A DNA stretch of 48,566 nucleotides. Origin: a virus (Duplodnaviria > Heunggongvirae > Uroviricota > Caudoviricetes). Below the pieces are notes generated by a model. It saw only the letters and a list, made by a program, of their open reading frames with translations. It made no database searches and was not told the origin of the DNA. The stretch covers positions 1 through 48,566 of IMG/VR virus record IMGVR_UViG_2636415673_000004, one strand, 5' to 3'. A program made the position numbers and the translations under genes. Position 1 is the stretch's first letter. Each line of letters opens with the position of its first letter. Shown piece after piece: positions 11,915 to 48,566 of the stretch.

Positions 11915-14472
11915 CGTCCACCTCCGGAGAACAGACCACCATCGCGCATCTGTGCCTGGATTTCATCACGGGCACCCTTGCGGGCCATGTCATACACCGC
12001 CTTCATCATCTGTGGACCTGGCAGACCATTCGTACCGTCGTTCTGAATCACCACGTTGTTGTTCTGCTCAAACCTGATACCCTCTGAACGCCGCATTTGC
12101 GCCGGACTTCCGGTGCCACCGACATAACCGCCGGTGGCATAGCCGCGCATCAGCCGGTAGAGATTTCCCACGCCAATCCGGCTGGTTGCCTCCTTCGTGA
12201 AGACAAATTCACCACGGTGAACAATCCCCGCTGGCTCATATTTGCCGCCGGTTCCCGTAAATCCTCCGGTTGCAAAATGGAGTTTCGCCGCAGCGGCCTG
12301 AATGGCTGTACCGCCTGACACTGATGCGCCACCACCGGCAGCACCGCCAATGACGCTGCCGATACTCCCGACAATCCCCACCATTGCCTGCTTAAGCAGA
12401 ATTTCTGTCATCATGGACAGCACGGAACGGGTGAAGCTGCGCCAGTTCTGCTCACTGCCGGTCAGCATCGCCGCCATATTCTGTGCAATTCCATCAAAGG
12501 TCTGCGTGGCTGCACTTTTTACCTGCGACATACTGTCCGTGGCGCTCTCTTCCCACTCACTCCAGCCGGACTTCAGGCCTGCCATCCAGTTCCCGCGAAG
12601 CTGGTCTTCAGCCGCCCAGGTCTTTTTCTGCTCTGACATGACGTTATTCAGCGCCAGCGGATTATCGCCATACTCCTCCTTCAGGCGCTGTTCCGTGGCT
12701 TCCTTCGCTGCCTGCCGGTCAGTCAGCCCCCGGCTTTTCGCATCAATGGCGGCCCGTTTTGCCCGTTGCTGCTGTGCGAATTTATCCGCCTGCTGCGCCA
12801 GCGCGTTCAGGTGCTCCTGATACGTGACCTTATCGCCAAGTGCAGCCAGCTGGCGTTTGTACTCCAGCGTCTCATCTTTATGCGCCAGCAGGGATTTCTC
12901 CTGTGCGGACAGCTGGCGACGTTGCGCCGCCTCCTCCAGTACCGCGAACTGACTTTCCGCCTTCCACAAATCCCGGCGCTGCTGGCTGATTTTCTCATTC
13001 GCTCCGGCATGCTTCTCCAGTGTCCGGAGTTCTGCCTGAAGCGTCAGCAGGGCAGCATGAGCACTGTCTTCCTGACGATCGCCCGCAGACACTTTCACGC
13101 CGGACTGCTTCGGCTTTTTCAGCGTCGCTTCATAGTCCTTTTTCGCCGCCGACATCAGCGTGTTGTAATCTGCCTGCAGGATTTTTCCGTCTTTCAGTGC
13201 CTTATTCAGTTCCTCCTGGCGGGCGGTATATTTCTCCAGCGGTGTCTGCAGGCGTTCGTAAGCCTTCTGCGCCTCTTCGGTATATTTCAGCCGTGACGCT
13301 TCGGTATCGCTCTGCTGCTGCGCATTTTTGTCCTGTTGACTCTGCTGTTCAGCCTTCTTTCGGGCGGCTTCAAGCGCAAGACGGGCCTTTTCACGATCAT
13401 CCCAGTAACGCGCCCGCGCTTCATCGTTAACGAAATAATCATCCTTGCGCAGATTCCAGATGTCGTCTGCTTTCTTAAACGCAGCCTCTGCCTTAATCAG
13501 CATCTCCTGAGCGGTATCAGGACGACCAATATCCAGCACCGCATCCCACATGGATTTGAATGCCCGTGCTATCCTGTCTGCCCAGGTTTCCAGCGTGCCC
13601 ATGTTCTCTTTCAGGCGGCGGGTCTGGTCATCAAACCCTTTCGTTGCGGCCTCGTTCGCTGCCTGCAATGCCCCGGCCTCATCGCCGGAACGCTGCAACT
13701 GAGCAACATACGCAATTTGCTCCGCCGTCACGTTATGGAACTGGCGCGCCATCGCCGTCAGCCCCGACGTCGGGTCAGTGGTCAGCTTCCCGAAGGCTTC
13801 AGCGACCTTGTCCACCTCCACGCCGGATGCAGAGGAGAAACGCGCCACACTCTGGCTGATGGACGCAATCTGAGCCTCACCGCTTACCCCCGCCTTAACC
13901 AGTGCGCTGAGTGACTCGCTGGTCTGGTTAAACGTCAGCCCTGCCGCCTGCCCGGCTCTGGACAGGACCAGCATACGATCTGCCGTCAGACCCGACTGAT
14001 TACCGGAAAGGACCAGCGTTTTGTTGAAATCGGACAGGGTTGAGTTACCCTGATACCAGGCATACGCCAGCGCACCGGTCGCCACCGCCAGCGAGGTGGC
14101 CCCGACCATCGGCAGGGTGATCGCACCGGCAAGCCCCCGGAACATGGGGATCATCCCGCCGAAGGAGTCCTTAACCTGACCACCCTGTTGCAGCAGGATC
14201 AGCCACGGACTTTGCCCGCCTGCAAGCTGCGTGGCCACGTCGGTGAACTGCGCAGGCAGCATACGCATGGCAGCTTTATACTGCCCGACGGAAATCCCCG
14301 CTTTCTGTGCAGCCAGCGCCTGCCGGTTCATCGACTGTTCAACGACTGCCGCTGTTTTTTTCGCATCAGTTTCCGTACCGGAAAAATGACGCCTGACTCT
14401 GGCCATCTGCTCGTCAAATCTGGCCGCATCCAGACTTAAATCAACGACCAGATCGCCTACTGGTTCAGCCAT
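11911..14472 (-). CDS. H: Tail tape-measure protein H (853 aa)
   Basis: Same length as lambda gpH; coiled-coil rich; conserved position. Confidence 0.95.
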   Translation of the reverse strand: MAEPVGDLVVDLSLDAARFDEQMARVRRHFSGTETDAKKTAAVVEQSMNRQALAAQKAGISVGQYKAAMRMLPAQFTDVATQLAGGQSPWLILLQQGGQVKDSFGGMIPMFRGLAGAITLPMVGATSLAVATGALAYAWYQGNSTLSDFNKTLVLSGNQSGLTADRMLVLSRAGQAAGLTFNQTSESLSALVKAGVSGEAQIASISQSVARFSSASGVEVDKVAEAFGKLTTDPTSGLTAMARQFHNVTAEQIAYVAQLQRSGDEAGALQAANEAATKGFDDQTRRLKENMGTLETWADRIARAFKSMWDAVLDIGRPDTAQEMLIKAEAAFKKADDIWNLRKDDYFVNDEARARYWDDREKARLALEAARKKAEQQSQQDKNAQQQSDTEASRLKYTEEAQKAYERLQTPLEKYTARQEELNKALKDGKILQADYNTLMSAAKKDYEATLKKPKQSGVKVSAGDRQEDSAHAALLTLQAELRTLEKHAGANEKISQQRRDLWKAESQFAVLEEAAQRRQLSAQEKSLLAHKDETLEYKRQLAALGDKVTYQEHLNALAQQADKFAQQQRAKRAAIDAKSRGLTDRQAAKEATEQRLKEEYGDNPLALNNVMSEQKKTWAAEDQLRGNWMAGLKSGWSEWEESATDSMSQVKSAATQTFDGIAQNMAAMLTGSEQNWRSFTRSVLSMMTEILLKQAMVGIVGSIGSVIGGAAGGGASVSGGTAIQAAAAKLHFATGGFTGTGGKYEPAGIVHRGEFVFTKEATSRIGVGNLYRLMRGYATGGYVGGTGSPAQMRRSEGIRFEQNNNVVIQNDGTNGLPGPQMMKAVYDMARKGARDEIQAQMRDGGLFSGGGR

Positions 14473-38197: not shown

Positions 38198-38824
38198 ATG
38201 GAAACGGTTGGTCAGCGTATAAAAGCTCTGAGAAGGGTTACCAGAACGTCCCAGAAAGAATTGGGTAAATTTTGTGGGGTAAGTGACGTTGCTGTGGGGT
38301 ACTGGGAAAAAGACATCAATGTCCCTGGCGGGGAAGCACTTTCGAAATTAGCGAAGTTCTTTAATACGTCAATAGATTACATTCTTTATGGTGCTGAGTT
38401 TGAAGGCAAACTAGTCACAAACATGCGCAGAGTTCCTGTAATTTCGTGGGTTCAGGCTGGGCAGTTTACTGAGTGCAGGGCAGCAGAAGTGTTTAGTGAA
38501 GTGGACAAGTGGGTAGATACATCTTTAAAGATTGGTGATAACTCATTTGCATTAGAAGTTAAAGGCGACTCCATGACTAATCCTAATGGCCTCCCAACAA
38601 TACCAGAAGGTGCAACAGTGATTGTAGATCCTGATGCAGAACCTCGTCATGGAAAAATAGTCATTGCTCGACTTGATGGAACGAACGAAGCTACAGTAAA
38701 AAAATTAGTCATCGATGGTCCTCAAAAGTTTTTAGTGCCATTAAATCCACGGTATCCCAACATCCCAATCAATGGTAATTGCCTGATCATTGGTGTAGTC
38801 AAAGGAGTTCAATACGAACTCTAG
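38198..38824 (+). CDS. cI: CI-type prophage repressor (HTH-XRE plus S24 LexA-like autopeptidase), 208 aa
   Basis: N-terminal HTH (QKELGKFCGVSDVAVGYWEKD); C-terminal S24 motifs GDSM (Ser) and a downstream Lys (ATVKKL). Confidence 0.85.
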   Translation: METVGQRIKALRRVTRTSQKELGKFCGVSDVAVGYWEKDINVPGGEALSKLAKFFNTSIDYILYGAEFEGKLVTNMRRVPVISWVQAGQFTECRAAEVFSEVDKWVDTSLKIGDNSFALEVKGDSMTNPNGLPTIPEGATVIVDPDAEPRHGKIVIARLDGTNEATVKKLVIDGPQKFLVPLNPRYPNIPINGNCLIIGVVKGVQYEL

Positions 38825-38846
38825 TACCTCCCTTCTCTAACCAAGG

Positions 38847-38880
38847 CACCAAACTAAGAAAAGTTTGGTGTTTCCTCTTG
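38847..38880 (+). terminator. Candidate terminator downstream of cI
   Basis: CACCAAACT-aagaaa-AGTTTGGTG followed by TTTCCTCTT; AT-rich stem, so only moderate. Confidence 0.4.
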
Positions 38881-38988
38881 CCTTAAAAACTAAGTTAAGT
38901 TAGATTTAATATCAAAGATAACGAACAGGCAGGACGCCCACAAAGTAGCCTCCTGGGGCAAATGAAGTCCAGGATGATTCGTTAGCAA

Positions 38989-39012
38989 CAAAAAAGCGCC
39001 CTATAGGACGCT
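38989..39012 (-). terminator. Rho-independent terminator downstream of the 39055..39576 gene
   Basis: Minus-strand AGCGTCC-TATA-GGGCGCT followed by TTTTTT. Confidence 0.6.
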
Positions 39013-39054
39013 TCGATCTTTAACAATCTGGGTATCATCCAACCAATGCAAGAT

Positions 39055-39576
39055 TTAAGGAATCCAAGGCGAATTCAGATCTCGCCCCGACTCACGTAAT
39101 GATCTTGGTCGTTCGTACATCGGATTTTTTTCCATAAGAAATTTATTTTCACAGTGAAGGCAACGGCTTGTAAGAAAATGAGAAGTTTTACCTACTGGAA
39201 GCGGATGAAGTATCGATTTTATATTTTTGGAATAACAAAGTGGGCACAGATGCACAGTTATTTCTTTTCCACTCACAATTTCATTTTTAGAGTAAACAAA
39301 AGCACCAGAGTCAAGCTGATCAAGGACATATCCTTCTACCTTGGCACAAAAATCTTCAAACTCTGCAATTTTTGCTTTGAGATGCATCACCTCTTCATCA
39401 CGAAGGCGGATCGCATCGCCAAGAGAGAAGCATTCTGCCTGAAGCGTGATTAGTTTGTTCTGGAGTTCAATGGTTGCAGCTTTAACTTCTGCATCCGTTT
39501 TCGCGTCATTAATAACCTTAGCAAGACCGGCAGTCTCCTTTATAGCAGCCATAGCCGCAGACAGTTCAGCTATCAC
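39055..39576 (-). CDS. Hypothetical protein (173 aa; coiled-coil N-terminus, CxxC...CxxC C-terminus), antisense to cI and the early-left operon
   Basis: Non-repetitive ORF with its own terminator; CPLCYSK...CLHCENKF motif; start codon GTG (39576) or ATG (39552), both with weak RBS. Confidence 0.45.
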   Translation of the reverse strand: MIAELSAAMAAIKETAGLAKVINDAKTDAEVKAATIELQNKLITLQAECFSLGDAIRLRDEEVMHLKAKIAEFEDFCAKVEGYVLDQLDSGAFVYSKNEIVSGKEITVHLCPLCYSKNIKSILHPLPVGKTSHFLTSRCLHCENKFLMEKNPMYERPRSLRESGRDLNSPWIP

Positions 39577-40045
39577 GTTGAATACTCAGCTAGTTGTTGG
39601 GGGTATCCAGATTAACCAAATCCTTGTTGTTGGGGAATAACCAGGTCCACCTCGCCTGATGTGGCTAAAAGCAGGCACATAACAGCTAAGTATTTTCAAC
39701 CAGAGAGAATCCTTAGCGTTGTGGTGAATGCGGCTCAGCGCACGCGGGTTAAGGTTGAGGCTGACAGTCGACCTTCTGTGGATACCCACCCGTCTGGTGT
39801 GCAACCTTCGCCAGGCACCGGGAGGCACCCGGCACCACAACTTTATGCTGTGTGTAGTCCTGGCGGTACCAGTTTGTACCCTTGCTTCCGGCTGGTACCG
39901 TCCTTTTTACAAAACAGAGAAGAGCATCACCGGACGACGGGCTCATAACCCAATCCATCCGGGCGGCTGCCACCGCAGGTGTTCTTCTCTGTTTTGTGGA
40001 GAAACTAATCGGCCTTGCAGGGTCGATATGATGAGGAGCAGCAAA

Positions 40046-40408
40046 ATGGCTAGCGAACGCAGTACTGATGTGCAGGCATTTATCGGGGAGCTGGACGGCG
40101 GCGTATTTGAAACCAAAATCGGCGCAGTTCTCAGTGAAGTCGCTTCCGGTGTGATGAACACGAAAACCAAAGGTAAGGTCTCACTCAACCTGGAAATCGA
40201 ACCATTTGATGAGAACCGTGTGAAAATCAAACACAAACTCTCATATGTTCGCCCGACTAACCGCGGGAAAATTTCCGAAGAAGACACCACCGAAACGCCG
40301 ATGTATGTCAATCGCGGTGGTCGCCTGACTATTCTGCAGGAAGACCAGGGACAATTACTGACTCTTGCCGGTGAGCCTGACGGAAAATTACGCGCAGCAG
40401 GTCATTAA
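40046..40408 (+). CDS. YfdP-like hypothetical protein (120 aa)
   Basis: Strong RBS (GAGGAG, 7 nt, ATG at 40046); first gene of a YfdP/Q/R/S-like cluster. Confidence 0.6.
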   Translation: MASERSTDVQAFIGELDGGVFETKIGAVLSEVASGVMNTKTKGKVSLNLEIEPFDENRVKIKHKLSYVRPTNRGKISEEDTTETPMYVNRGGRLTILQEDQGQLLTLAGEPDGKLRAAGH

Positions 40409-40473
40409 TATCGTTCTTAATTAACTGATTATTTATCTCATCACTGAATATCTTTATATAGTGAGGACTTATT

Positions 40474-41298
40474 ATGTCTCAGAACTTAGACGCAACCGCA
40501 ATTAATCAAATCCATGCCCTTATTTCTGCTCAGGGTGTTAATGAAATTATCAGTAAGATTGGTGCCGATGCTGTGGCATTGCCTGAGAATTTCCGCATTC
40601 ATGATCTGGAAAAATTTAATTTAAATCGCTTCCGTTTCCGTGGTGCGCTTTCCACTGCCAGCATCGATGACTTTACCCGTTATTCTAAAGATCTTGCAGA
40701 TGAAGGCACCCGCTGCTTTATCGATGCCGATAATATGCGAGCCGTCAGTGTGCTTAACCTGGGTACTATTGGTGAACCAGGTCACGCAGATAACACCGCC
40801 ACACTCAAACTGAAAAAGACAGCACCGTTCTCTGCTCTGTTGTCTGTTAATGGCGAGCGTAACTCCCAGAAGTCACTGGCAGAATGGATTGAAGACTGGG
40901 CCGACTACCTTGTGGGCTTTGATGCTAATGGTGACGCTATTCAGGCAACAAAAGCGGCTGCGGCGGTCCGAAAAATCACGATTGAAGCAAACCAGACCGC
41001 TGATTTTGAAGATAATGACTTCAGCGGCAAACGCTCCCTGATGGAGTCTGTCGAAGCGAAGACCAAAGATATTATGCCAGTGGCATTTGAATTTAAATGC
41101 GTTCCGTTTGAAGGTCTGAAAGAACGTCCATTTAAATTACGCCTCAGCATTATCACTGGCGATCGTCCTGTACTGGTTCTGCGCATTATTCAGCTGGAAG
41201 CAGTGCAGGAAGAAATGGCTAACGAATTTCGTGATCTGCTTGTTGAGAAATTCAAAGACAGCAAAGTAGAAACCTTTATTGGTACTTTCACCGCCTGA
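40474..41298 (+). CDS. yfdQ: YfdQ-like (DUF2303-family) protein (274 aa)
   Basis: Same length as K-12 CPS-53 YfdQ and in the same neighbourhood as YfdR/YfdS-like genes; GTGAGGA RBS. Confidence 0.6.
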
Positions 41299-41426
41299 TT
41301 TCATTACTGCAAATGCCCCTGCGGGGGCATTTATGGAAACGTAATTAACTCAATAATCGCCGGATGGTGAGGGCTTCCTTTTACCCGAATTCAGCGCGGT
41401 GCAGCGCATATAACGTGGAGAACAAA

Positions 41427-41963
41427 ATGTCATTTATTAAAACTTTTTCCGGGAAACATTTTTATTATGACAGGATAAATAAAGACAACATCGATATTAA
41501 CGATATCGCGGTTTCCCTTTCAAATATCTGTCGCTTTGCTGGTCATCTTTCACACTTCTACAGCGTTGCCCAACATGCGGTGCTTTGCAGCCAGCTGGTA
41601 CCGGAGGAGTTTGCTTTTGAAGCGTTAATGCATGATGCAACAGAAGCGTATTGCCAGGACATCCCCGCACCACTGAAACGCCTTCTTCCTGACTATAAAC
41701 GGATGGAAGAAAAAATAGATGCCGTAATCCGTGAGAAATACGGGTTACCCCCAGTTATGAGTACGCCCGTGAAATATGCCGATCTTATCATGCTGGCAAC
41801 CGAACGCCGCGATCTCGGGCTTGATGATGGCTCTTTCTGGCCTGTACTGGAAGGCATCCCGGCAACAGAGATGTTCAACGTGATTCCACTGGCACCTGGC
41901 CATGCCTACGGGATGTTTATGGAACGTTTTAACGAGTTATCGGAGTTACGCAAATGCGCATGA
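41427..41963 (+). CDS. yfdR: HD-domain phosphohydrolase, YfdR-like 5'-deoxynucleotidase (178 aa)
   Basis: MSFIKTFSGKHFYYDRINKDN... with HD-family residues (...FAGHLSHF...HDATEAY...). Confidence 0.7.
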   Translation: MSFIKTFSGKHFYYDRINKDNIDINDIAVSLSNICRFAGHLSHFYSVAQHAVLCSQLVPEEFAFEALMHDATEAYCQDIPAPLKRLLPDYKRMEEKIDAVIREKYGLPPVMSTPVKYADLIMLATERRDLGLDDGSFWPVLEGIPATEMFNVIPLAPGHAYGMFMERFNELSELRKCA

Positions 41964-42316
41964 ATGTTTTCGAAATGGAAGGGTTTCTTCGCGGGAAATG
42001 TGTACCGCGAGATCTGAAAGTGAACGAAACAAATGCTGAGTACCTGGTACGTAAATTCGACGCGCTTGAAGCTAAATGTGCGGCACTGGAAAACAAAATA
42101 ATACCAGTGTCAGCTGAACTGCCACCAGCAAATGAAAGTGTTCTGTTATTTGATGCTAACGGAGAAGGCTGGCTGATTGGCTGGCGTTCTCTCTGGTACA
42201 CCTGGGGACAAAAAGAAACCGGAGAATGGCAGTGGACATTTCAGGTCGGGGACCTTGAAAACTTCAATATCACTCACTGGGCAGTAATGCCCAAAGCGCC
42301 GGAGGCTGGAGCATAA
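41954..42316 (+). CDS. DUF551-domain protein (120 aa), YfdS-like
   Basis: C-terminal W-rich block ending ...NITHWAVMPKAPE; overlaps the yfdR-like stop. Confidence 0.55.
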   Translation: MRMNVFEMEGFLRGKCVPRDLKVNETNAEYLVRKFDALEAKCAALENKIIPVSAELPPANESVLLFDANGEGWLIGWRSLWYTWGQKETGEWQWTFQVGDLENFNITHWAVMPKAPEAGA

Positions 42317-42936
42317 TGACCACATTTACCAATAAAGAACTGATTAAAGAAATCAAAGAACGAATCAGCAGCCTAGAGGTTCGAGACGATATTGAGCGCC
42401 GTGCTTATGAAATTGCTCTGGCATCGCTGGAAGAGGAGCCGGTGGCATGGCTGCATTCAGACAATGGCTTAGGTATTCCGGCAATAACCAGGAGCAAAAA
42501 CATTGCTGACAGTTGGTTATCAATGGGCTGGTATGTTCAGCCGCTATATATAGCCAAGCCAGTACTGGTGGTGCCAGATGCTCGTCCGTCTTTAAATAAT
42601 GGCATAGTCGGTTTTGATGAAGGCTGGAACGCCTGCCGCGCCACCATGCTTCATGGTGCCAAACCTGTAAGCCAGACTTACAAGTTGAACAAGCTGTCGG
42701 GCAACTCTCCGGTAACTCAGGATGGTTGGATAAGCTGTAGTGAGCGAATGCCGAACGATAAACAGTATGTTTGGTGTTGGGGTAAGTCTTACGGCTGGAC
42801 TGAGTGCGATACCTTCGAAGGGTATTACGATTGGTCGAGAAACAAATGGTGGGCAGTTACAGACGATGGGGAAGAACCGGCATCGAAAGTAACCCACTGG
42901 ATGCCGCTACCGGAGCCACCGCAGGAGGTGAAGTAA
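42316..42936 (+). CDS. DUF551-domain protein (206 aa)
   Basis: C-terminal GWISCSERMPNDKQYVWCWGK...VTHWMPLPEPP; TAATG coupling to the upstream gene. Confidence 0.55.
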   Translation: MTTFTNKELIKEIKERISSLEVRDDIERRAYEIALASLEEEPVAWLHSDNGLGIPAITRSKNIADSWLSMGWYVQPLYIAKPVLVVPDARPSLNNGIVGFDEGWNACRATMLHGAKPVSQTYKLNKLSGNSPVTQDGWISCSERMPNDKQYVWCWGKSYGWTECDTFEGYYDWSRNKWWAVTDDGEEPASKVTHWMPLPEPPQEVK

Positions 42937-43130
42937 TGAACAACTTAATGACAACTAAACAAGTCGCCGACTTCTGTGGTGTTTCAGTATCGACCGTTCT
43001 TCGCTGGAACAGCGTAAACAGGAGAACTGGCCAGAAATACAGGCCTGACTTTCCAGATCCTGATATTAAATCCTGCCCAAATAAATGGGCATCACGCAAG
43101 ATATACAGGTTTGCTGGAGTTATTGAGTGA
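42936..43130 (+). CDS. xis: Excisionase/AlpA-like small HTH protein (64 aa)
   Basis: MNNLMTTKQVADFCGVSVSTVLRWNS... HTH; last gene of the early-left operon; TAATG coupling. Confidence 0.6.
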   Translation: MNNLMTTKQVADFCGVSVSTVLRWNSVNRRTGQKYRPDFPDPDIKSCPNKWASRKIYRFAGVIE

Positions 43131-43332
43131 TGGGTATTAGCTCATATCAGAACTAATACCCATCAATGACACAGAGCCAACTACCCACCCTGTGTCAGGG
43201 GCTAACTTTTAACACCATAATTCACCGCTAGATAAAAACTGTATTGCATTGCACGAGCGGCGCAGCATTATCAGTTAGAGTGTCTTTACCTTGTTAGGCT
43301 CCACAGTTCGCACTGTCCAACGCCTGTCACTT

Positions 43333-46300
43333 TCACACGCTGCGCCTTCGAGAATATTCATTTAATCGCTGATAACGAACATCTTGCTCCAGTTGTGGAG
43401 CAGCTTGAACAATTTGAAGCAAGCATTGCCCCAACTCTCGAGGCCCCCAGTGTTGTTCGGCAATCACGGCATTCAGCAGGGATAGAGCGTCCGCAGGATA
43501 TCGGCTGCAAATATCTGATTCTAGCAAAAGGCGAACGTCGTAGCTAAGGTGTTCGAGCGGTTGCAGCCAGTCCTGCACCACTGCCAAAGCCGCCGGAAAT
43601 TCACCTCGGGCAGCAATCACCATACGAGTCAACGATTCGGATATGCGTGGGGTGGCCAAGTTGCGGGACTTTGGCCAAACCTGTTGCCAAAATGGCTGGA
43701 CACGATTTTTCCAATACTCCTCGCGCTGATCGCCCGCACCTTCAAGTGCCTGGTATAACGCCTGCGCGGCTACCTCCAGACCTTCTTGTGGAAGAGCACT
43801 AATTGCCGTTCGGAACTCCTCCACGGTATATCCCTCGGTAGGGCCCAGAGCTGCATAAGTCAGGAAAGTAGCGAATTGCTGCCGGTGCTCGCCAAGATCA
43901 GAATAGTGATTGGCGCTCTCCAAAAAATCTGACTTGAAAGCTATCAGCAACGGTTCATACAGGCGTGGCGACCAGAGGAAGCCTTCCCACACAGCTTTTG
44001 CTTCGACGGGATTACTCCAAGCAAACAAGGGCAATAGATACTGTTCGGTCCAAGGTCGATCTACGCGAAAAAATGCGATCAGCCGCGACCCCAGCAACAC
44101 CCGACCATGGCGGAATAGCTCTATCTGTACATTACACAATTTGGTGAAAAGTGTTTTCAATTCAACAGGAAGCAAATCATTGTCATTCGGGTTCTGTTTG
44201 AACCATAGGGTGATCAGTGATTGCGTGACATGCCCAATGGGATGATTGATCGCCGTAGAAACAGGATCATAGGTCTCAATTCCGTTTCGAATGGTGCTAG
44301 ACTCTGGGCTTGTTTCTATCATCAGAACCCGACGACAAAGGGCCAGTAGAATCTCCTCGTGGCAGAGGATGGTCTTCGAAGCCTCCTCCATCCACCAAGT
44401 GACAGCGTGGGAAATCTCCTGAAGTACTGCGTCAGGCATGTCAAGCACCAACGGTGCGGCGTACCGCCACGAACGCAAAATCATCCCTGGTTCAGCCCAA
44501 GTCTGCAGAGCTTCACGCCACCGACCAACAGGCCACACATCATCTTGTGATAGTTTACTTAACGCATACAGACTGTGAAAAAAGCGCGTACGGCAAACAT
44601 CACTCCAAGTGTCCTCATAGAAAGGCAGTCTTTCTGGCATAGGCTTTGCGAGCCATTGCACTAATTCCTGCCACTTACGGGGCGCAATGTCGACATCTAT
44701 ATTCTCCTCGAAGCCTGGATCACCGGTTCCGCTCATCCAGTGAGAGAATTCATCACGCTCGTTGGTTGCCAGTTGCCATTTTGGGTATGCTGTGGATATT
44801 TCCGTCAAACGTGTAGCCGCAGACTCTCCCAAAACAAGGCCCGCTCCCCTGAGCTTCGCTAGACACAACCAGACGGAATGAGCCACCAAATAATGCCACC
44901 TGTCTGCTTCCAAATTATCCTCGTACATCTCGCGCGGAGGCCCTGCCAAGATAGCAGTTTCCAGACGCTCTTGTGCAATTCCTGTCAGATGTCGTCCCTG
45001 CAAAACAAACAGTCTGAATACCTCTCGCCCAGTATCCGTGGCCCACAACCACCATGAACCGTCCTCTAACAACCAATTAACCCACCGCTCAGGTGGTATG
45101 CAGTTGTCTTGGCTTGCGGCAAACAGTGCCAGACGTTTGAAGGTGGGATATGGCAACTCAAACCAATTCTGAGCAATGCGCGTGGCCTGATCGCTGTCTT
45201 TGGCTCGAACGGCTAACCATGAATCCCGAAGTAATTCAATCAGGCTCACCCAATCGCGGAACCCCCGGTTCTGCCAGTGCGGAGTGATGGACGGCAAATC
45301 CCAATGCGAGCGGTCGTGACGATCGTCGGACTCTCCCAACTCCCGCAACAAGTCCAGTGCATCACGCAACAACTGCTGAAAATCTTCCAACAGGTATGGC
45401 AAGGACGATTTCCATGACTCGTCAGCAAGGTCGAACAGGGTTGAACGTACGTAATCAGCAGTCAGCACCAGCTCCCAATCCACCAATTGCTTGATTCGCA
45501 AGGGTTCATCAGTGCTGCTCGAATCGTCTTCACTATAGCGAAACGGCCGCCTCAACATAACCTTGGGAGAAAGCAACTCGCGTAACTCCAAGCGCAATGT
45601 AGTCGTCAAGCCTTCATTCTTTAAGCGGTTTTGCCAACGATACAAATCCAGGTTCTGCAATGGCGATTTCACACGACCACTAAGCAGAAGCCGCCATAAA
45701 GTAGACATAGGTGGACCAGGAATAGCCAGGGGGGAATGCAAGAGAATTTCATCTAACTCAAAAGTCTTACGCTCCCGCATCAGTGCTGCTAAGCGATCTA
45801 GTTCGCTCTCAATCAGAAACATCCAACGGTCGTGTATTTGTCCGCCGCGTTCAGCAATCCATATGATCAACCTAGGGTCGCCCAGATAACGAACTAGCCA
45901 ACGGGCTATATGGGACATTACGTCATCCCATTTGCTAGCACTGACACATCCAGAAACCAGCGACATCTGCAGGGCCAGCTCATAGGGCGCAGGACGCTGA
46001 ACCAGACTGAATCGGAGTTTCGGGTCAATTTCGACATGCGGAGATACACAAAAGCGTGGCAGATCGCTGTATTTAAATCGTTCGTCCGAGAAAGCTTTCA
46101 ATAACCAATCCAGCGGCGGTGCAGGATTGAGTTCCGCAAAGCGTTTTGCTGGTAAACCTGATTTATCTGACAAGGCCCACAACATCCGACCAACGAAATC
46201 GTCCTGACGAGTGCTGTCCTGCGGGCGGGCCAGAGCATGTTTGACGACTATAGCCTCTTTGCCCTGTATACCATCTCGATAAGTATCTGCCCAAGCGTGC

Positions 46301-47160
46301 AACGTTTGATGCAGCACTGAATGATCAGTGGAGCCCGCCGGTACGGTGTAAAGGATAGGAGTGACCCCTTTGGCCTCCCACTCGATGGCTTTCCGGTGCT
46401 CCTGCCCCGGCTCACACTCCCCCAGTGCCCATACTTGTGGTGTGACTTCACCGAGCCTCCGATCTGCTGCAAGCGCATCCATCATGTAGCGCAGTACCGG
46501 GTCGTTGATGCTGTAGCCAACGAAGCAGACCACATAGTTACGAAATAACTCACTCACAAAGCGAGCTGCCCAACGCTCAGTGAGATAAGCCAAGCCAAAG
46601 TCACCGCTGGTAACAACCAGACGATTCAGGGCAGTATCATCCGCCTTTTCCGGTAACAGCCCATGCAGGTATACAAGTCCATCCCAGCGGCTGTTTTTTG
46701 GAATTGGCAGCATCGGCGCTACATAGGCCTGAAAAGCCTGGCCTGTACGTTTAGCTGCCACATGAAAGAGACGGTCAAAGTTGGTAGTGACCAATCGAAG
46801 GGCACCCTCGCGGCTACGGGCTAAACGTAACAGCGCCGCCTGAGTATCAATAGCGCCCCTACGACGGAGCTTTGGCTTAAGGGCTTTTTCCAACGCGCGT
46901 CGGACGGCTATACGCTGCCCTGGTAAGCGCCGTTCCAGCAAATCTAATGTGCCGTCAAATTGCCCACGCTCGAAAACCTCACGCTCAATTTCTGAAAGTG
47001 TTGTTCCGTTCCTCTGGTAAATTAGTTCTACCAACCCTTTGAAACCAGGTAAACCAGCAGGGTAGGAAATGCCTGCTCCACAGAAGAACACAACGCGCCC
47101 TTCCTCGTGCGCCTGCAAAAGCTCATCAGGAATATCAGGGCCGTTGGTAATGAATTGCAT
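43333..47160 (-). CDS. Large SIR2-domain protein (1275 aa): N-terminal sirtuin-like NADase domain (about aa 20-290) plus about 1000-aa helical C-terminal region of unknown function; candidate antiphage defence protein
   Basis: Sirtuin motifs GAGIS-x-P-x-GLPGF (aa 28-40), TTNFD (N127) and YLHG (H166); strong RBS (AGGAGG, 7 nt, ATG); cargo position between xis and int. Confidence 0.8.
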   Translation of the reverse strand: MQFITNGPDIPDELLQAHEEGRVVFFCGAGISYPAGLPGFKGLVELIYQRNGTTLSEIEREVFERGQFDGTLDLLERRLPGQRIAVRRALEKALKPKLRRRGAIDTQAALLRLARSREGALRLVTTNFDRLFHVAAKRTGQAFQAYVAPMLPIPKNSRWDGLVYLHGLLPEKADDTALNRLVVTSGDFGLAYLTERWAARFVSELFRNYVVCFVGYSINDPVLRYMMDALAADRRLGEVTPQVWALGECEPGQEHRKAIEWEAKGVTPILYTVPAGSTDHSVLHQTLHAWADTYRDGIQGKEAIVVKHALARPQDSTRQDDFVGRMLWALSDKSGLPAKRFAELNPAPPLDWLLKAFSDERFKYSDLPRFCVSPHVEIDPKLRFSLVQRPAPYELALQMSLVSGCVSASKWDDVMSHIARWLVRYLGDPRLIIWIAERGGQIHDRWMFLIESELDRLAALMRERKTFELDEILLHSPLAIPGPPMSTLWRLLLSGRVKSPLQNLDLYRWQNRLKNEGLTTTLRLELRELLSPKVMLRRPFRYSEDDSSSTDEPLRIKQLVDWELVLTADYVRSTLFDLADESWKSSLPYLLEDFQQLLRDALDLLRELGESDDRHDRSHWDLPSITPHWQNRGFRDWVSLIELLRDSWLAVRAKDSDQATRIAQNWFELPYPTFKRLALFAASQDNCIPPERWVNWLLEDGSWWLWATDTGREVFRLFVLQGRHLTGIAQERLETAILAGPPREMYEDNLEADRWHYLVAHSVWLCLAKLRGAGLVLGESAATRLTEISTAYPKWQLATNERDEFSHWMSGTGDPGFEENIDVDIAPRKWQELVQWLAKPMPERLPFYEDTWSDVCRTRFFHSLYALSKLSQDDVWPVGRWREALQTWAEPGMILRSWRYAAPLVLDMPDAVLQEISHAVTWWMEEASKTILCHEEILLALCRRVLMIETSPESSTIRNGIETYDPVSTAINHPIGHVTQSLITLWFKQNPNDNDLLPVELKTLFTKLCNVQIELFRHGRVLLGSRLIAFFRVDRPWTEQYLLPLFAWSNPVEAKAVWEGFLWSPRLYEPLLIAFKSDFLESANHYSDLGEHRQQFATFLTYAALGPTEGYTVEEFRTAISALPQEGLEVAAQALYQALEGAGDQREEYWKNRVQPFWQQVWPKSRNLATPRISESLTRMVIAARGEFPAALAVVQDWLQPLEHLSYDVRLLLESDICSRYPADALSLLNAVIAEQHWGPRELGQCLLQIVQAAPQLEQDVRYQRLNEYSRRRSV

Positions 47161-47342
47161 TCCTTTTCCTCCTATCCAATGTGCACGTTCATTCGAGTAA
47201 ATGAAGGCAAGGGGTTACATCTTATTATACCGACCGTGCAAATCCGGCTTCCTAGCAAGCTACTTTACTTGCCAACTCATAATGTCCGAACTCCGAACAA
47301 AGCGGACTGCTAGATTTGATTGCGTTCTAGCTACGCAAAATA

Positions 47343-48566
47343 TCATTTCGAGCCTGAACGAGTACAAGTAACAATCGATTCAACTCTCTCCCACCATGCC
47401 TGGTAGGCTTTACGCTGTTCTTCTAGATAATCACTCTTGTCATAAACTTGCCATACACCTGGCAGTTTATGACCGAGCATTATTTCAGCAATATGAGGCG
47501 CAGTAAGATCAGAAAAGTTTGTTCGTGCTGTTCGTCTCAAATCATGAAGAGACCAATGAGGAAATTGATACCCCAAACGCCGCCATGCGTACTGCATTAA
47601 ATTGTAAGGTAGCGACTGCAATGATGTCCGACCAACTGGTTCCCTGCTTCCTTCCTTAGTAAAAAGCATATCGGAACCGTTGTTCATAGAGATAACGTAT
47701 TTTATAAGCTCTTCAACCGGTTCAATAATGGGCCGCTTTAGCGGTTCGCCTGTTATATCCCCTGTCTTATGTCGTTCTGGTGGTACAGTCCATATTTTAT
47801 TAATGAAATCAAAATCGTCCACCTTGGCAGTAATTAGCTCTGAACTACGGCAACCAAAATGCAGCAATAGTTTAATGAAGGCCCGGTATTTAGGAACCAT
47901 TCGAGAACCATCGATCGCAGCATAAAGGATTTTAATTTCATCATGTGTCAGAAACCGTTTCTTCTGACCTTTACGGATATCCATATCTTTACCCGTGATA
48001 TCCGACAGCGGGCGAGTTTCAATGAGCTTTCTCTTATACGCCCAGACATGGGCCTGCTTTGCGTTAATTAGCAATCGGTCTGCTATTGCTGGAGTCTTAG
48101 TGCTAAGAGGCTCCAGGACTTCTAACCAATCATGCAATGTAGCTGCATCGTGAGGGATATTCCCGATTTTAGAGAACAGGTGCAGCTCAAACGAGCGGAG
48201 TATCTGTTCAGAACCTTTTTTATTTTTTACACAATATGCTTCATACCAAGCACGGATCACAGATTCTACCGTCATGGCTTCAGTAGCTTTACGTTTTTCT
48301 GCCAGCTTGACCAATCGTGGATTGCGGTTTGACTCGAGTTCACCACGAAGACGGATAACTTCTTCTCTGGCCTCTTTTAGTCCAGTTGCCGGGTAAGTTC
48401 CGATATCAAGACGCTCACCTTTCCCCGCCCACTGATAACGATATTGGAACACTACGCGACCTTTCGGTGATACTCTAACAGACAGACCATCACGATCGGA
48501 TTTAACCAAAACCTTATCACGTTCCTTTCCAACAACTGAACGCAACCACGCATCAGACAGCGCCAT
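47343..48566 (-). CDS. int: Tyrosine-type phage integrase (407 aa); ATG at the window edge
   Basis: N-terminus MALSDAWLRSVVGKERDKVL...GLSVRVSPKGRVVFQYRY typical of P4-like integrases; C-terminal catalytic region with HDLRRT and HxxG-Y motifs. Confidence 0.85.
   Translation of the reverse strand: MALSDAWLRSVVGKERDKVLVKSDRDGLSVRVSPKGRVVFQYRYQWAGKGERLDIGTYPATGLKEAREEVIRLRGELESNRNPRLVKLAEKRKATEAMTVESVIRAWYEAYCVKNKKGSEQILRSFELHLFSKIGNIPHDAATLHDWLEVLEPLSTKTPAIADRLLINAKQAHVWAYKRKLIETRPLSDITGKDMDIRKGQKKRFLTHDEIKILYAAIDGSRMVPKYRAFIKLLLHFGCRSSELITAKVDDFDFINKIWTVPPERHKTGDITGEPLKRPIIEPVEELIKYVISMNNGSDMLFTKEGSREPVGRTSLQSLPYNLMQYAWRRLGYQFPHWSLHDLRRTARTNFSDLTAPHIAEIMLGHKLPGVWQVYDKSDYLEEQRKAYQAWWERVESIVTCTRSGSK

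What the first reader, a model, noticed from the sequence alone, without database searches (positions are those of the whole stretch)
47161..47342. Independent expression signals for the SIR2 gene downstream of int
The 182-bp spacer between the int stop and the SIR2 start ends in a near-ideal SD (AGGAGGAAAAGGA-ATG) and contains a TATAAT hexamer on the minus strand. Because int is normally silent in a lysogen, a private promoter here would fit a gene expressed from the prophage state.
Basis: inference. Interest (0 to 1): 0.4.

Follow-up and report, generated by a model that had tools for sequence, protein, structure and literature searches.

The report
Own promoter region for prophage dsr1
The 182-base gap between a prophage integrase gene and the anti-phage gene dsr1 carries a strong ribosome-binding site and probably dsr1's own promoter, which is ordinary for prophage defence cargo, but the gene and its leader turn out to be a former integron cassette.

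Summary
The spacer is 47161..47342, the SD is AGGAGG-7 nt-ATG, and one TATAAT lies on the sense (minus) strand at 47229..47224.

The "SIR2 gene" is Dsr1, a known single-gene anti-phage system. It sits in an E. coli lambdoid prophage inserted between yjjG and prfC.

A private promoter is supported mainly by published work, not by the hexamer. Srikant et al. 2022 cloned dsr1 with 300 bp of upstream DNA, and their primers match window 47460 and 43333 exactly. That fragment protected E. coli K-12 without the int promoter. Deleting dsr1 in ECOR17 abolished defence without prophage induction.

TATAAT has no usable -35. It is TCTAAT, TACAAT, TATAAC or TTTAGT in relatives. It scores no better than chance allows in 300 bp, so the start site is still unmapped.

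New here: the spacer is a three-part mosaic.
- About 45 bp travel with int.
- About 80 bp occur only in enterobacterial dsr1 loci and hold both promoter candidates.
- A 57-nt leader with the SD is conserved across phyla and starts at an integron cassette crossover (G|TTAGACCC).

The slot itself is a defence-gene hotspot. Interest is modest.

The parts
47343..48566 (-). int: tyrosine recombinase with an Arm-DNA-binding N-terminus (P4-type). It is the backbone gene of a prophage inserted between yjjG and prfC.
   Evidence: Pfam PF00589, PF13356 and PF22022. RefSeq annotation of the identical locus L001. It is present in 700 E. coli records, of which only 76 also carry dsr1.
47161..47342 (-). The 182-bp int-dsr1 spacer, which is the finding itself. 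It is a mosaic of three segments of different ancestry.
47298..47342 (-). int-linked segment of the spacer. It is kept in int-bearing prophages whatever the cargo.
   Evidence: In megablast of 46900-47700, int-only genomes lose homology at window 47298-47301 (largest group), 47314-47319, 47333-47341 or inside int. Alignment A2 shows the same.
47320..47338 (-). Weak hairpin TTGCGT-7-ACGCAA just after the int stop. It is not a convincing terminator.
   Evidence: dG is -6.7 kcal/mol with z -1.3 and no U tract on the sense strand. The stem is not conserved in allele 2.
47284..47307 (-). Type (b) palindromic hairpin GTCCGCTTTGTTCGGAGTTCGGAC. The junction between backbone and dsr1 module falls inside it.
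   Evidence: Homologues GTCCGCTnTGAGCGAnGAGCGGAC lie upstream of dsr1 in L009, L010, L012, L078 and L172.
47262..47290 (-). Candidate promoter P1: TTCGGA (47290..47285), 17 nt, TAAAGT (47267..47262).
   Evidence: PWM score 8.22. The homologous position reads TTGGAC-17-TAGAGT in L009, L010 and L012 (score 8.63). It reads TTGGAC-17-TAGATT on Pantoea plasmid L172 and TTGTGA-16-TAGCTT in allele 2. This is a prediction only.
47224..47229 (-). It is a perfect -10 without a usable -35.
   Evidence: Located. PWM score 8.56 with TAGGAA at 19 nt. Relatives read TCTAAT (allele 2), TACAAT (L009), TATAAC (L010, L012) and TTTAGT (L172). This is a prediction only.
47161..47217 (-). Cassette leader: a 57-nt 5' UTR that travels with dsr1 across phyla. 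It begins at the degenerate integron crossover G(47218)|TAACCCC.
   Evidence: About 19 of 80 genomes from many phyla carry GTTAGACCC-like 61-64 nt before the ATG, followed by a conserved leader. There is no conserved RNA structure. The window leader folds no better than shuffles (z +0.74).
47168..47173 (-). Shine-Dalgarno AGGAGG, 7 nt before the ATG at 47160.
   Evidence: It is invariant in both E. coli alleles. Most other leaders have the weaker TAGGAA.
47174..47194 (-). Six-codon mini-ORF ATG AAC GTG CAC ATT GGA TAG inside the leader. Probably not functional.
   Evidence: Read. It is present in about half of the 24 aligned leaders. The start is ATA or ACG, or the frame is broken, in the rest. 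No SD precedes it.
43333..47160 (-). dsr1: defence-associated sirtuin 1. It has an N-terminal SIR2 NADase domain and a long C-terminal region.
   Evidence: PADLOC Dsr1 PDLC02183, E=0, residues 1-1275. NCBIfam NF041818 equivalog, 2054.9 bits against a cut-off of 1400. Pfam SIR2_2. The RefSeq name is dsr1.
43200..43299 (-). Degenerate attC-like element 3' of dsr1. R''-like GCCTAAC lies at 43299..43293, 33 nt after the stop. Imperfect inverted repeats follow, then GTTAAAAG / GTTAGCC.
   Evidence: Homologues have R'' at the same +33 offset. L099 has a canonical 61-nt attC, GTCTAAC...GTTAGGT. Support for the window copy is weak (RNAalifold -3.3 kcal/mol).
43181..43206 (-). Diverged type (a) hairpin (GTTAGCCCCTGACACAGGGTGGGTAG) at the xis-side end of the variable cargo.
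   Evidence: Canonical GTCCGCTTCTGGCACAAAGCGGAC occupies the same position in L098, L109, L111-113, L119 and L172.
43181..47297 (-). The whole dsr1 cargo module (4117 bp). Sister prophages carry other genes in its place.
   Evidence: blastn against UTI89 (L003) and GDSC2239PM (L004). Alternative cargos are listed.
43333..47460 (-). The fragment cloned as pBR322-Dsr1(ECOR17) by Srikant et al. 2022: dsr1 plus 300 bp upstream.
   Evidence: The gene-specific parts of primers SS-43 and SS-44 match exactly at 47460..47433 and 43333..43348. SS-43 matches only allele-1 loci.

Best explanation
dsr1 is an autonomous single-gene anti-phage module. It sits in the variable slot between int and the xis/DUF551 end of the early-left operon of an E. 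coli lambdoid prophage integrated between yjjG and prfC.

The 182-bp spacer supplies its expression signals in two layers.
- The 57 nt next to the ATG (47217..47161) are an unstructured leader with a strong SD. The leader has travelled with dsr1 since it was an integron gene cassette. It starts at the cassette crossover G|TTAGACCC, and such cassettes normally carry no promoter.
- The about 80 bp upstream of the leader (47297..47218) occur only in enterobacterial dsr1 loci. They provide a sigma-70-type promoter that keeps dsr1 expressed at a basal level in the uninduced lysogen, independently of int.

There are two candidates. One is TATAAT at 47229..47224, whose predicted start falls at the cassette boundary at about 47217. 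The other is the better-conserved P1, TTCGGA-17-TAAAGT at 47290..47262. Because no terminator separates int from dsr1, int transcripts probably read through and add to expression.

Shown: gene identity, the SD, the mosaic structure, the cargo hotspot, and (from the literature) that 300 bp upstream suffice for function and that the chromosomal gene is active without induction.

Inferred: that the promoter lies in the spacer rather than in the last 118 bp of int, which hexamer is used, and the integron ancestry of the E. coli copy.
For: Identity:
- Dsr1 HMMs match full length and above cut-off.

Function and promoter:
- PMC9391042 reports that ECOR17 delta-dsr1 loses defence, and that dsr1 with '300 bp upstream promoter' on pBR322 protects MG1655.
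- The primers map exactly to window 47460 and 43333 and only to this allele.

Module boundaries:
- 700 E. coli records have int, but only 76 have the spacer beyond about 47298 together with dsr1.
- The variable DNA is 43181..47297.

The flank travels with dsr1 without int:
- In L009 the upstream genes are divergent.
- On Pantoea plasmid L172 there is a 655-bp gap to a divergent neighbour.

Slot autonomy:
- dGTPase, dCTP deaminase and a 331-aa gene sit in the slot convergent with int.
- AIPR and HNH genes sit there co-directional with int.

Leader:
- It is conserved from G|TTAGACCC to the ATG in about 19 of 80 genomes of several phyla.
- No RNA structure is conserved.

Cassette origin:
- An attC ends exactly at the leader start in L023 and L040.
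- An integron integrase (TIGR02249, 217.7 + 109.5 bits in two frames) lies 0.8 kb upstream in L023.
- A canonical attC lies 33 nt after the stop in L099.

Promoter candidates:
- Both lie only in the non-cassette flank.

Composition:
- dsr1 is about 50-55% GC, against about 43% for int.
Against: - No transcript data exist for this locus.
- Neither candidate promoter exceeds chance. About 0.7 sites of that score are expected per 300 nt, and the tool scan finds none.
- TATAAT is mutated at its most critical bases in relatives with intact dsr1: TCTAAT in allele 2, TATAAC in L010 and L012, TTTAGT in L172.
- The cloned 300 bp include 118 bp of int coding DNA, which could hold the promoter.
- Vector read-through in pBR322 cannot be formally excluded. 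My reading that primers SS-39/40 remove the tet promoter rests on my own knowledge of the pBR322 sequence.
- The window's cassette ends are degenerate (G|TAACCCC; the attC-like element is weakly supported). There is no IntI in the window.
Confidence: 0.7

Rival explanations
1. There is no private promoter. dsr1 is the distal gene of an int-dsr1 operon and is expressed only by read-through from the int promoter, which lies outside the window.
For: - The genes are co-oriented and only 182 bp apart.
- There is no convincing intrinsic terminator. The hairpin at 47338..47320 has dG -6.7, no U tract, and is not conserved.
- Promoter predictions in the spacer are at chance level.
- A sigma-70-like site, TTGAAA-17-TAAATT, lies upstream of int in L001 at 13787..13759.
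Against: - The 300-bp fragment without the int promoter suffices for protection in K-12.
- The same flank precedes dsr1 where no co-directional gene is upstream (L009 and L172).
- Convergent cargos in the same slot must be self-expressed.
Confidence: 0.12
2. A private promoter exists, but it is P1 (TTCGGA-17-TAAAGT, 47290..47262) rather than the TATAAT. TATAAT is an incidental or recently gained allele-specific element.
For: - P1 is conserved as TTGGAC-17-TAGAGT or TAGATT in four independent enterobacterial loci (L009, L010, L012, L172).
- A version exists in allele 2.
- TATAAT is not conserved in any of them.
Against: - In the window allele an 8-nt deletion has replaced the ancestral -35. P1 matches only 7 of 12 consensus positions here.
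- TATAAT is a perfect -10, and the hexamer is rare in this window.
- Both promoters could be active.
Confidence: 0.3
3. The functional promoter lies in the last 118 bp of the int coding sequence (47343..47460), not in the spacer.
For: - The published construct includes this DNA.
- Weak sigma-70-like matches exist there: GATATT at 47344..47339 with TTGTAC, score 7.47, and GATTAT at 47432..47427.
Against: - This DNA belongs to the int backbone. It is absent upstream of dsr1 in L009, L010, L012 and L172, where dsr1 still needs a promoter.
- Its scores are lower than those of P1 and P2.
Confidence: 0.1
4. The plasmid result is a vector artefact (read-through from pBR322), and the chromosomal gene is expressed from a distant phage promoter.
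For: No transcription terminator upstream of the insert is described in the paper's methods.
Against: - The vector primers end immediately before the tet -35. From my own knowledge of pBR322, the remaining vector promoters (bla, RNAII) read the other way.
- The neighbouring phage operon (38198..43130) is on the opposite strand and converges on dsr1.
Confidence: 0.05

Closest known systems
Dsr1 (defence-associated sirtuin 1; Gao et al. 2020; Garb et al. 2022; E. coli ECOR17 copy in Srikant et al. 2022)
   Same: The protein matches Dsr1 models full length and above curated cut-offs, with an N-terminal SIR2_2 domain. The ECOR17 cloning primers match this window exactly. The gene is single, and its native upstream DNA has been used successfully as a promoter.
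   Different: Nothing differs in the protein. What is added here is the anatomy of the upstream DNA and the ancestry of the module.
Phage morons and prophage defence hotspots (for example the P2/P4 hotspots of Rousset et al. 2022, and the gtr lysogenic-conversion genes next to int in CPS-53, P22 and SfV)
   Same: A variable, self-expressed accessory gene lies between conserved backbone genes next to int. In sister prophages it is replaced by other defence genes (dGTPase, dCTP deaminase, AIPR, HNH). Its GC content differs from that of its neighbours.
   Different: No clear terminator bounds the module on the int side. Its ends coincide with conserved 24-nt palindromes, which to my knowledge have not been described for such hotspots.
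Integron gene cassettes encoding phage defence (for example bioRxiv 10.1101/2024.07.02.601719, 'Mobile Integrons Encode Phage Defense Systems')
   Same: In other genomes dsr1 begins at a G|TTRRRY crossover, directly after the attC of a preceding cassette. It is followed by an attC. In L023 it lies 0.8 kb from an integron integrase. It has a short promoterless leader with an RBS.
   Different: At 3.8 kb dsr1 is very large for a cassette. In the window there is no IntI, both cassette ends are degenerate, and the promoter is supplied by non-cassette flank. The one paper in the searched library that mentions both integrons and Dsr1 is a review I did not read, so I found no reported link.
Lambda int retroregulation (the sib/tI hairpin downstream of int)
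   Same: Hairpins lie immediately downstream of an integrase gene.
   Different: The hairpins here are weak, are not followed by a U tract, and are not conserved as structures between alleles. Nothing suggests RNase III control. Considered and set aside.

Membership tests
Dsr1 anti-phage system | Full-length match to curated Dsr1 profiles above cut-off | tested here: met
   NCBIfam NF041818 equivalog, 2054.9 bits against a cut-off of 1400, profile 1-1263. PADLOC PDLC02183, E=0, residues 1-1275.
Dsr1 anti-phage system | N-terminal SIR2 (NADase) domain | tested here: met
   Pfam PF13289 SIR2_2, 8.9e-23, residues 123-269. The motifs TTNFD and YLHG are visible in the translation. Catalytic activity was not tested.
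Dsr1 anti-phage system | Confers phage resistance | not testable with these tools
   From the literature only. ECOR17 delta-dsr1 and pBR322-Dsr1(ECOR17) act against a T4 clone lacking nrdC.5 (PMC9391042). The primers are identical to the window.
Sigma-70 promoter | -10 hexamer close to TATAAT, with A at position 2 and T at position 6 | tested here: met
   TATAAT at 47229..47224. P1 has TAAAGT at 47267..47262.
Sigma-70 promoter | -35 hexamer close to TTGACA, 16-18 bp upstream (or an extended -10 TGn) | tested here: not met
   For TATAAT the hexamer at 17 bp is GGAAGC, and the best is TAGGAA at 19 bp. There is no TG at -15/-14 (CGG). The tool scan finds no site in the spacer. P1 has TTCGGA at 17 bp, 3 of 6.
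Sigma-70 promoter | Conservation of the hexamers in orthologous upstream regions | tested here: inconclusive
   TATAAT becomes TCTAAT, TACAAT, TATAAC or TTTAGT in relatives. P1 is conserved in 4 enterobacterial loci but altered in the window.
Sigma-70 promoter | A mapped transcription start or reporter activity | not testable with these tools
   There is indirect evidence only: function of the 300-bp upstream fragment on a plasmid.
Prophage moron / defence hotspot cargo | Present or absent, or replaced, between conserved flanking genes in related prophages | tested here: met
   700 records carry int and 76 carry dsr1. The variable block is 43181..47297. Five other cargos occupy the slot.
Prophage moron / defence hotspot cargo | Own promoter and own terminator | tested here: inconclusive
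   The promoter is inferred (see above). On the dsr1 strand, only hairpins without a U tract follow the gene.
Integron gene cassette | 5' boundary at the G|TTRRRY crossover of an attC or attI | tested here: inconclusive
   Met in homologues. GTTAGACCC-like lies 61-64 nt before the ATG in about 19 loci, and an attC ends there in L023 and L040. The window reads G|TAACCCC, which is degenerate.
Integron gene cassette | attC (R''-L''...L'-R' imperfect palindrome) at the 3' end | tested here: inconclusive
   A canonical attC is present in L099, with similar elements in L107 and L121. The window has GCCTAAC at +33 and imperfect repeats, but the consensus fold is weak. My attC heuristic finds none in the window.
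Integron gene cassette | An integron integrase (IntI) nearby | tested here: not met
   The window int is not IntI: there is no TIGR02249 hit. IntI was found only in L023. The window copy is therefore at most an ex-cassette.

The most novel reading that the evidence does not exclude
The dsr1 module is an integron cassette that was captured, together with a promoter-bearing flank, into a prophage cargo slot. The two ends of that slot are marked by conserved 24-nt palindromes, GTCCGCTTyTGGCACArAGCGGAC and GTCCGCTnTGAGCGAnGAGCGGAC.

These palindromes border highly diverse defence and accessory cargo in at least 84 viral contigs. They flank dsr1 on both sides on a Pantoea plasmid. On this reading they would be recombination sites of a so far undescribed cassette-exchange system for prophage cargo, rather than passive terminators or repeats.
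Probability: 0.15. Interest if true: 0.7.

Novelty: new member of a known kind. Interest (0 to 1): 0.35.

Why it matters
For the finding as written, little changes. A prophage defence gene with its own promoter and a strong SD is the expected arrangement, and the native upstream DNA of this very gene has already been used successfully in the laboratory.

Three results go beyond that:
- The promoter is not part of the unit that moves between phyla. The conserved cassette brings only a leader and an RBS. The enterobacterial flank brings the promoter. This is a concrete example of how a promoterless integron cassette can become a self-expressed prophage gene.
- Dsr1 joins the list of defence systems carried as integron cassettes. 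This fits with its more than 80% protein identity across distant phyla.
- The int-xis slot of yjjG/prfC prophages is a single-gene defence hotspot. It could be mined for new systems, and its palindromic borders are unexplained.

Tried and rejected
- **Known RNA families.** Rfam on 46900-47700, and on three loci carrying the palindromes, found nothing relevant. There was a sub-threshold mir-3204 chance hit, and CyaR and STnc100 elsewhere.
- **Structured leader, riboswitch or thermosensor.** RNAalifold on 24 leaders gives no pairs. The window leader folds no better than shuffles.
- **Leader peptide.** A 6-codon ATG-N15-TAG ORF exists in about half of the leaders. It loses its start or frame in the others and has no SD.
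- **Extended inverted repeat between the leader and the post-stop region beyond the R'/R'' boxes.** The score equals the shuffled control, 2.7 against 2.5.
- **Promoter inside the cassette leader.** The only recurring match, TAGACC-18-TCGAAT, lacks the essential A at -11.
- **Sigma-54 reading of TTGGCA...TTGC.** The spacing is wrong (by eye).
- **Intrinsic terminator after int.** The hairpin is weak, has no U tract, and is not conserved.
- **Strict attC scan.** My first criteria were too strict and missed true sites. A relaxed version hit the dsr1 boundaries in L023, L040 and L099 but not in the window.
- **att core search.** The window does not contain the prophage ends, so no direct repeat was found between the window's left end and the int-upstream DNA of L001.
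- **Gao et al. 2020.** The paper could not be retrieved, so I do not cite its cloning details.
- **Literature search for the palindrome sequence.** No paper was found.

Full report
**1. What is at the coordinates**

The window's right end carries two co-oriented minus-strand genes.
- A 407-aa tyrosine recombinase lies at 47343..48566. It has Pfam Phage_integrase, Arm-DNA-bind_3 and Phage_int_M domains.
- A 1275-aa ORF lies at 43333..47160.

Read on the sense strand, it ends in ATAGGAGGAAAAGGA-ATG.
- AGGAGG is at 47173..47168, 7 nt before the start codon.
- One TATAAT lies at 47229..47224.

**2. Identity and setting**

The large protein is Dsr1.
- It matches PADLOC model PDLC02183 over residues 1-1275 with E=0.
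- It passes the NCBIfam Dsr1 equivalog NF041818, with 2054.9 bits against a cut-off of 1400.
- It has a SIR2_2 domain.

The DNA is 100% identical to E. coli chromosomes. There it belongs to a CPS-53-like lambdoid prophage (yfdN, yfdP-S, cI/cro-type genes) inserted between yjjG and prfC. On the other side of dsr1, the plus-strand early-left operon (38198..43130) converges on it.

**3. Is the TATAAT a promoter?**

Sequence alone cannot say.
- The hexamer is rare here, with 6 copies in the window against 14.3 expected.
- It has no -35 at 16-18 bp and no extended -10.
- The sigma-70 scan finds nothing in the spacer.
- A rough position-weight score of my own, built on approximate textbook frequencies, ranks it in the top 0.22% of window positions. 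That still predicts about 0.7 equally good sites per 300 nt.
- A second candidate scores almost the same: P1, TTCGGA-17-TAAAGT at 47290..47262.

Comparison with relatives weakens the case for TATAAT.
- The second E. coli dsr1 allele is about 85% identical, occurs in 9 genomes, and lies at the same site. It has TCTAAT there, while its SD and ATG are invariant.
- Enterobacteriaceae bacterium G50 has TACAAT. Citrobacter and Leclercia have TATAAC. A Pantoea plasmid has TTTAGT.
- P1 is kept as TTGGAC-17-TAGAGT or TAGATT in those four loci. In the window it is damaged by an 8-nt deletion.

TATAAT is thus specific to this allele, and it may compensate for the weakened P1.

**4. Functional evidence from the literature**

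Srikant, Guegler and Laub (eLife 2022, PMC9391042) reported three relevant results.
- Disrupting dsr1 in E. coli ECOR17 restores plating of a T4 clone lacking nrdC.5.
- The construct held "the upstream promoter (300 bp)".

The gene-specific parts of their primers SS-43 and SS-44 match the window exactly, at 47460..47433 and 43333..43348. SS-43 matches only allele-1 loci among those I fetched.

The cloned piece is therefore window 43333..47460. That is the spacer plus 118 bp of the int 3' end, and it excludes the int promoter.

By my own knowledge of the pBR322 sequence, the vector primers end just before the tet -35 hexamer. No known vector promoter then reads into the insert.

This is the strongest support for independent expression. 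The ECOR17 deletion phenotype also shows expression without prophage induction. It does not locate the start site.

**5. The spacer is a mosaic**

*Segment i, 47342..47298.* Of 700 E. coli records that carry this int, only 76 carry dsr1. The others lose homology at window 47298-47301 (the largest group), 47314-47319, 47333-47341, or inside int. This segment goes with int.

*Segment ii, 47297..47218.* This segment aligns only with enterobacterial dsr1 loci. It contains both promoter candidates.

*Segment iii, 47217..47161.* This segment is conserved far more widely.
- The first 300 residues of Dsr1 are 82-93% identical in 80 genomes. These include Proteobacteria, Nitrospira, Cyanobacteria, Chlorobium, Planctomycetes and Chloroflexi.
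- About 19 of them share a leader that starts sharply at GTTAGACCC, 61-64 nt before the ATG. It ends ...CTCGAATGAAC...CATTGGATAGGAA...AGGA-ATG.
- The leader has no conserved secondary structure. In the window it folds no better than shuffled sequence.
- It looks like a plain, open translation-initiation region. E. coli has sharpened TAGGAA to TAGGAGG.

**6. The sharp boundary is an integron cassette crossover**

G|TTAGAC fits the core site GTTRRRY. Four observations support the cassette reading.
- In L023 and L040 the DNA just upstream is a 99-nt imperfect palindrome running from GCCTAAC to ...G|TTAGAC. That is an attC of a preceding cassette.
- In L023 a frameshifted integron integrase lies 0.8 kb upstream. 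It matches TIGR02249 with 217.7 + 109.5 bits, covering profile positions 8-312. One small cassette lies between it and dsr1.
- On the 3' side, an R''-type box (GTCTAAC or GCCTAAC) sits 33 nt after the stop in many loci, including the window at 43299..43293. L099 has a canonical 61-nt attC there.
- The R'' flank GGGTCTAAC is the complement of the 5' boundary GTTAGACCC, as expected for a circularised cassette (listing).

The window copy is degenerate at both ends (G|TAACCCC; the attC-like fold is weak) and has no IntI. It is at most a former cassette.

Cassettes are normally promoterless. This fits the finding that both promoter candidates lie in segment ii, outside the cassette. The predicted start from TATAAT (about 47217) coincides with the cassette boundary.

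A second architecture exists in about 17 genomes. There the dsr1 GTG start overlaps the stop of an HsdS-like gene in a type I R-M operon.

**7. The slot**

Against UTI89 and GDSC2239PM, the variable block is window 43181..47297. Other strains carry other genes in it.

| Cargo | Orientation relative to int |
|---|---|
| 331-aa hypothetical gene | convergent |
| 876-aa HNH endonuclease | co-directional |
| dGTPase | convergent |
| anti-phage dCTP deaminase | convergent |
| AIPR protein | co-directional |

This is a single-gene defence hotspot. Cargo in the convergent orientation must be self-expressed.

dsr1 also occurs with the same flank where no co-directional gene lies upstream. Examples are L009 and Pantoea plasmid pASB05p3, which has a 655-bp gap to a divergent neighbour.

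**8. Read-through**

The only hairpin after int (47338..47320) has dG -6.7 kcal/mol and no U tract, and it is not conserved. Transcripts from the int promoter probably continue into dsr1. A candidate int promoter, TTGAAA-17-TAAATT, lies in L001 outside the window.

**9. Unexplained palindromes**

The module ends coincide with two kinds of 24-nt palindrome.
- Type (b), GTCCGCTnTGAGCGAnGAGCGGAC, has its window copy at 47307..47284, directly upstream of P1.
- Type (a), GTCCGCTTyTGGCACArAGCGGAC, has a diverged window copy at 43206..43181.

On the Pantoea plasmid, type (a) flanks dsr1 on both sides.

An exact scan finds type (a) in 84 IMG/VR contigs.
- They show 47 different sequences on one side and a few conserved backbones on the other.
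- The adjacent genes include a retron RT, PDC-S39, GmrSD, DarT, Mrr, AbiC and pPIWI-nuclease genes.

No Rfam family or paper matches the sequence. The role of these palindromes, whether recombination site, insulator or terminator, is open.

**10. Verdict**

The TATAAT itself remains an unproven, allele-specific candidate.

The arrangement is ordinary for prophage defence cargo. The added value is the three-part ancestry of the spacer, the integron-cassette origin of dsr1, and the palindrome-bordered hotspot.

Noticed in passing
window 43333..47160; loci L009-L088: The first 300 residues of Dsr1 are 82-93% identical in 80 genomes. These span Proteobacteria, Nitrospira, Cyanobacteria, Chlorobium, Planctomycetes and Chloroflexi. 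That is unusually high conservation and breadth for a defence gene.
   Followed up: partly
L023 756..2443; L040 2348..2446; L099 2434..2494: In some genomes dsr1 is a genuine integron cassette. In L023 a frameshifted IntI (TIGR02249) is followed by one small cassette and an attC that ends at the dsr1 leader. L099 has a canonical attC 33 nt after the dsr1 stop. The one paper holding both terms is a review I did not read, so I found no reported link between Dsr1 and integrons.
   Followed up: partly
L017 1361..2500 and about 16 other loci (L022, L027-L029, L032, L044, L045, L049 and others): A second dsr1 architecture exists. The GTG start overlaps the TGA stop of an HsdS-like type I R-M specificity gene, which is preceded by a YhcG/DUF1016-like gene. 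In these loci dsr1 is embedded in an R-M operon with no leader at all.
   Followed up: partly
window 47307..47284 and 43206..43181; L172 1478-1501, 3856-3879, 7995-8018; L173-L252: Two families of 24-nt palindromes, GTCCGCTTyTGGCACArAGCGGAC and GTCCGCTnTGAGCGAnGAGCGGAC, mark the ends of the dsr1 module. The first occurs in 84 IMG/VR contigs at the border between conserved prophage backbone and highly diverse, largely defence-type cargo. There is no Rfam or literature match.
   Followed up: partly
E. coli loci L003, L004, L168, L169, L170 (equivalent to window 43181..47297): The int-xis slot of yjjG/prfC prophages is a single-gene defence hotspot. Apart from dsr1 it holds a dGTPase, an anti-phage dCTP deaminase, an AIPR protein, a large HNH endonuclease or an unknown 331-aa gene, in either orientation.
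   Followed up: partly
window 42804..43130 (+), probably from the internal ATG near 42936: This is an HTH_17/MerR-like small ORF at the end of the early-left operon and is probably the excisionase. It is not annotated in the identical RefSeq record. The corresponding ORF is annotated as an HTH protein in O157:H7 NE122.
   Followed up: no
window 43128..43165: A 16-nt inverted repeat, 94% complementary with a 6-nt loop, overlaps the stop of the Xis-like ORF. It lies in conserved backbone just outside the cargo. It could be a bidirectional terminator or a protein-binding site.
   Followed up: no
whole window: TATAAT is depleted: 6 copies on both strands against 14.3 +/- 3.8 in shuffles.
   Followed up: no
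window 47174..47194 (-): A six-codon ORF (MNVHIG*) lies in the dsr1 leader, and its stop overlaps the SD. It is present in about half of the 24 aligned leaders from other taxa but is lost or frameshifted in the rest.
   Followed up: yes
records LC727881.1 and NZ_CP134663.1: A deposited 'Stx2c-converting phage' record of 92.9 kb contains the whole dsr1 module at 99.8% identity with no annotation under it. A 4.9-Mb E. coli record listed in the plasmid collection is evidently a chromosome.
   Followed up: no
L171 (Shewanella xiamenensis plasmid pXY8M34-1) 4014..7844: dsr1 is also plasmid-borne in Shewanella and Pantoea, at 77-80% DNA identity. In Shewanella, homology with the window stops at about the cassette boundary (window 47208-47227).
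   Followed up: partly
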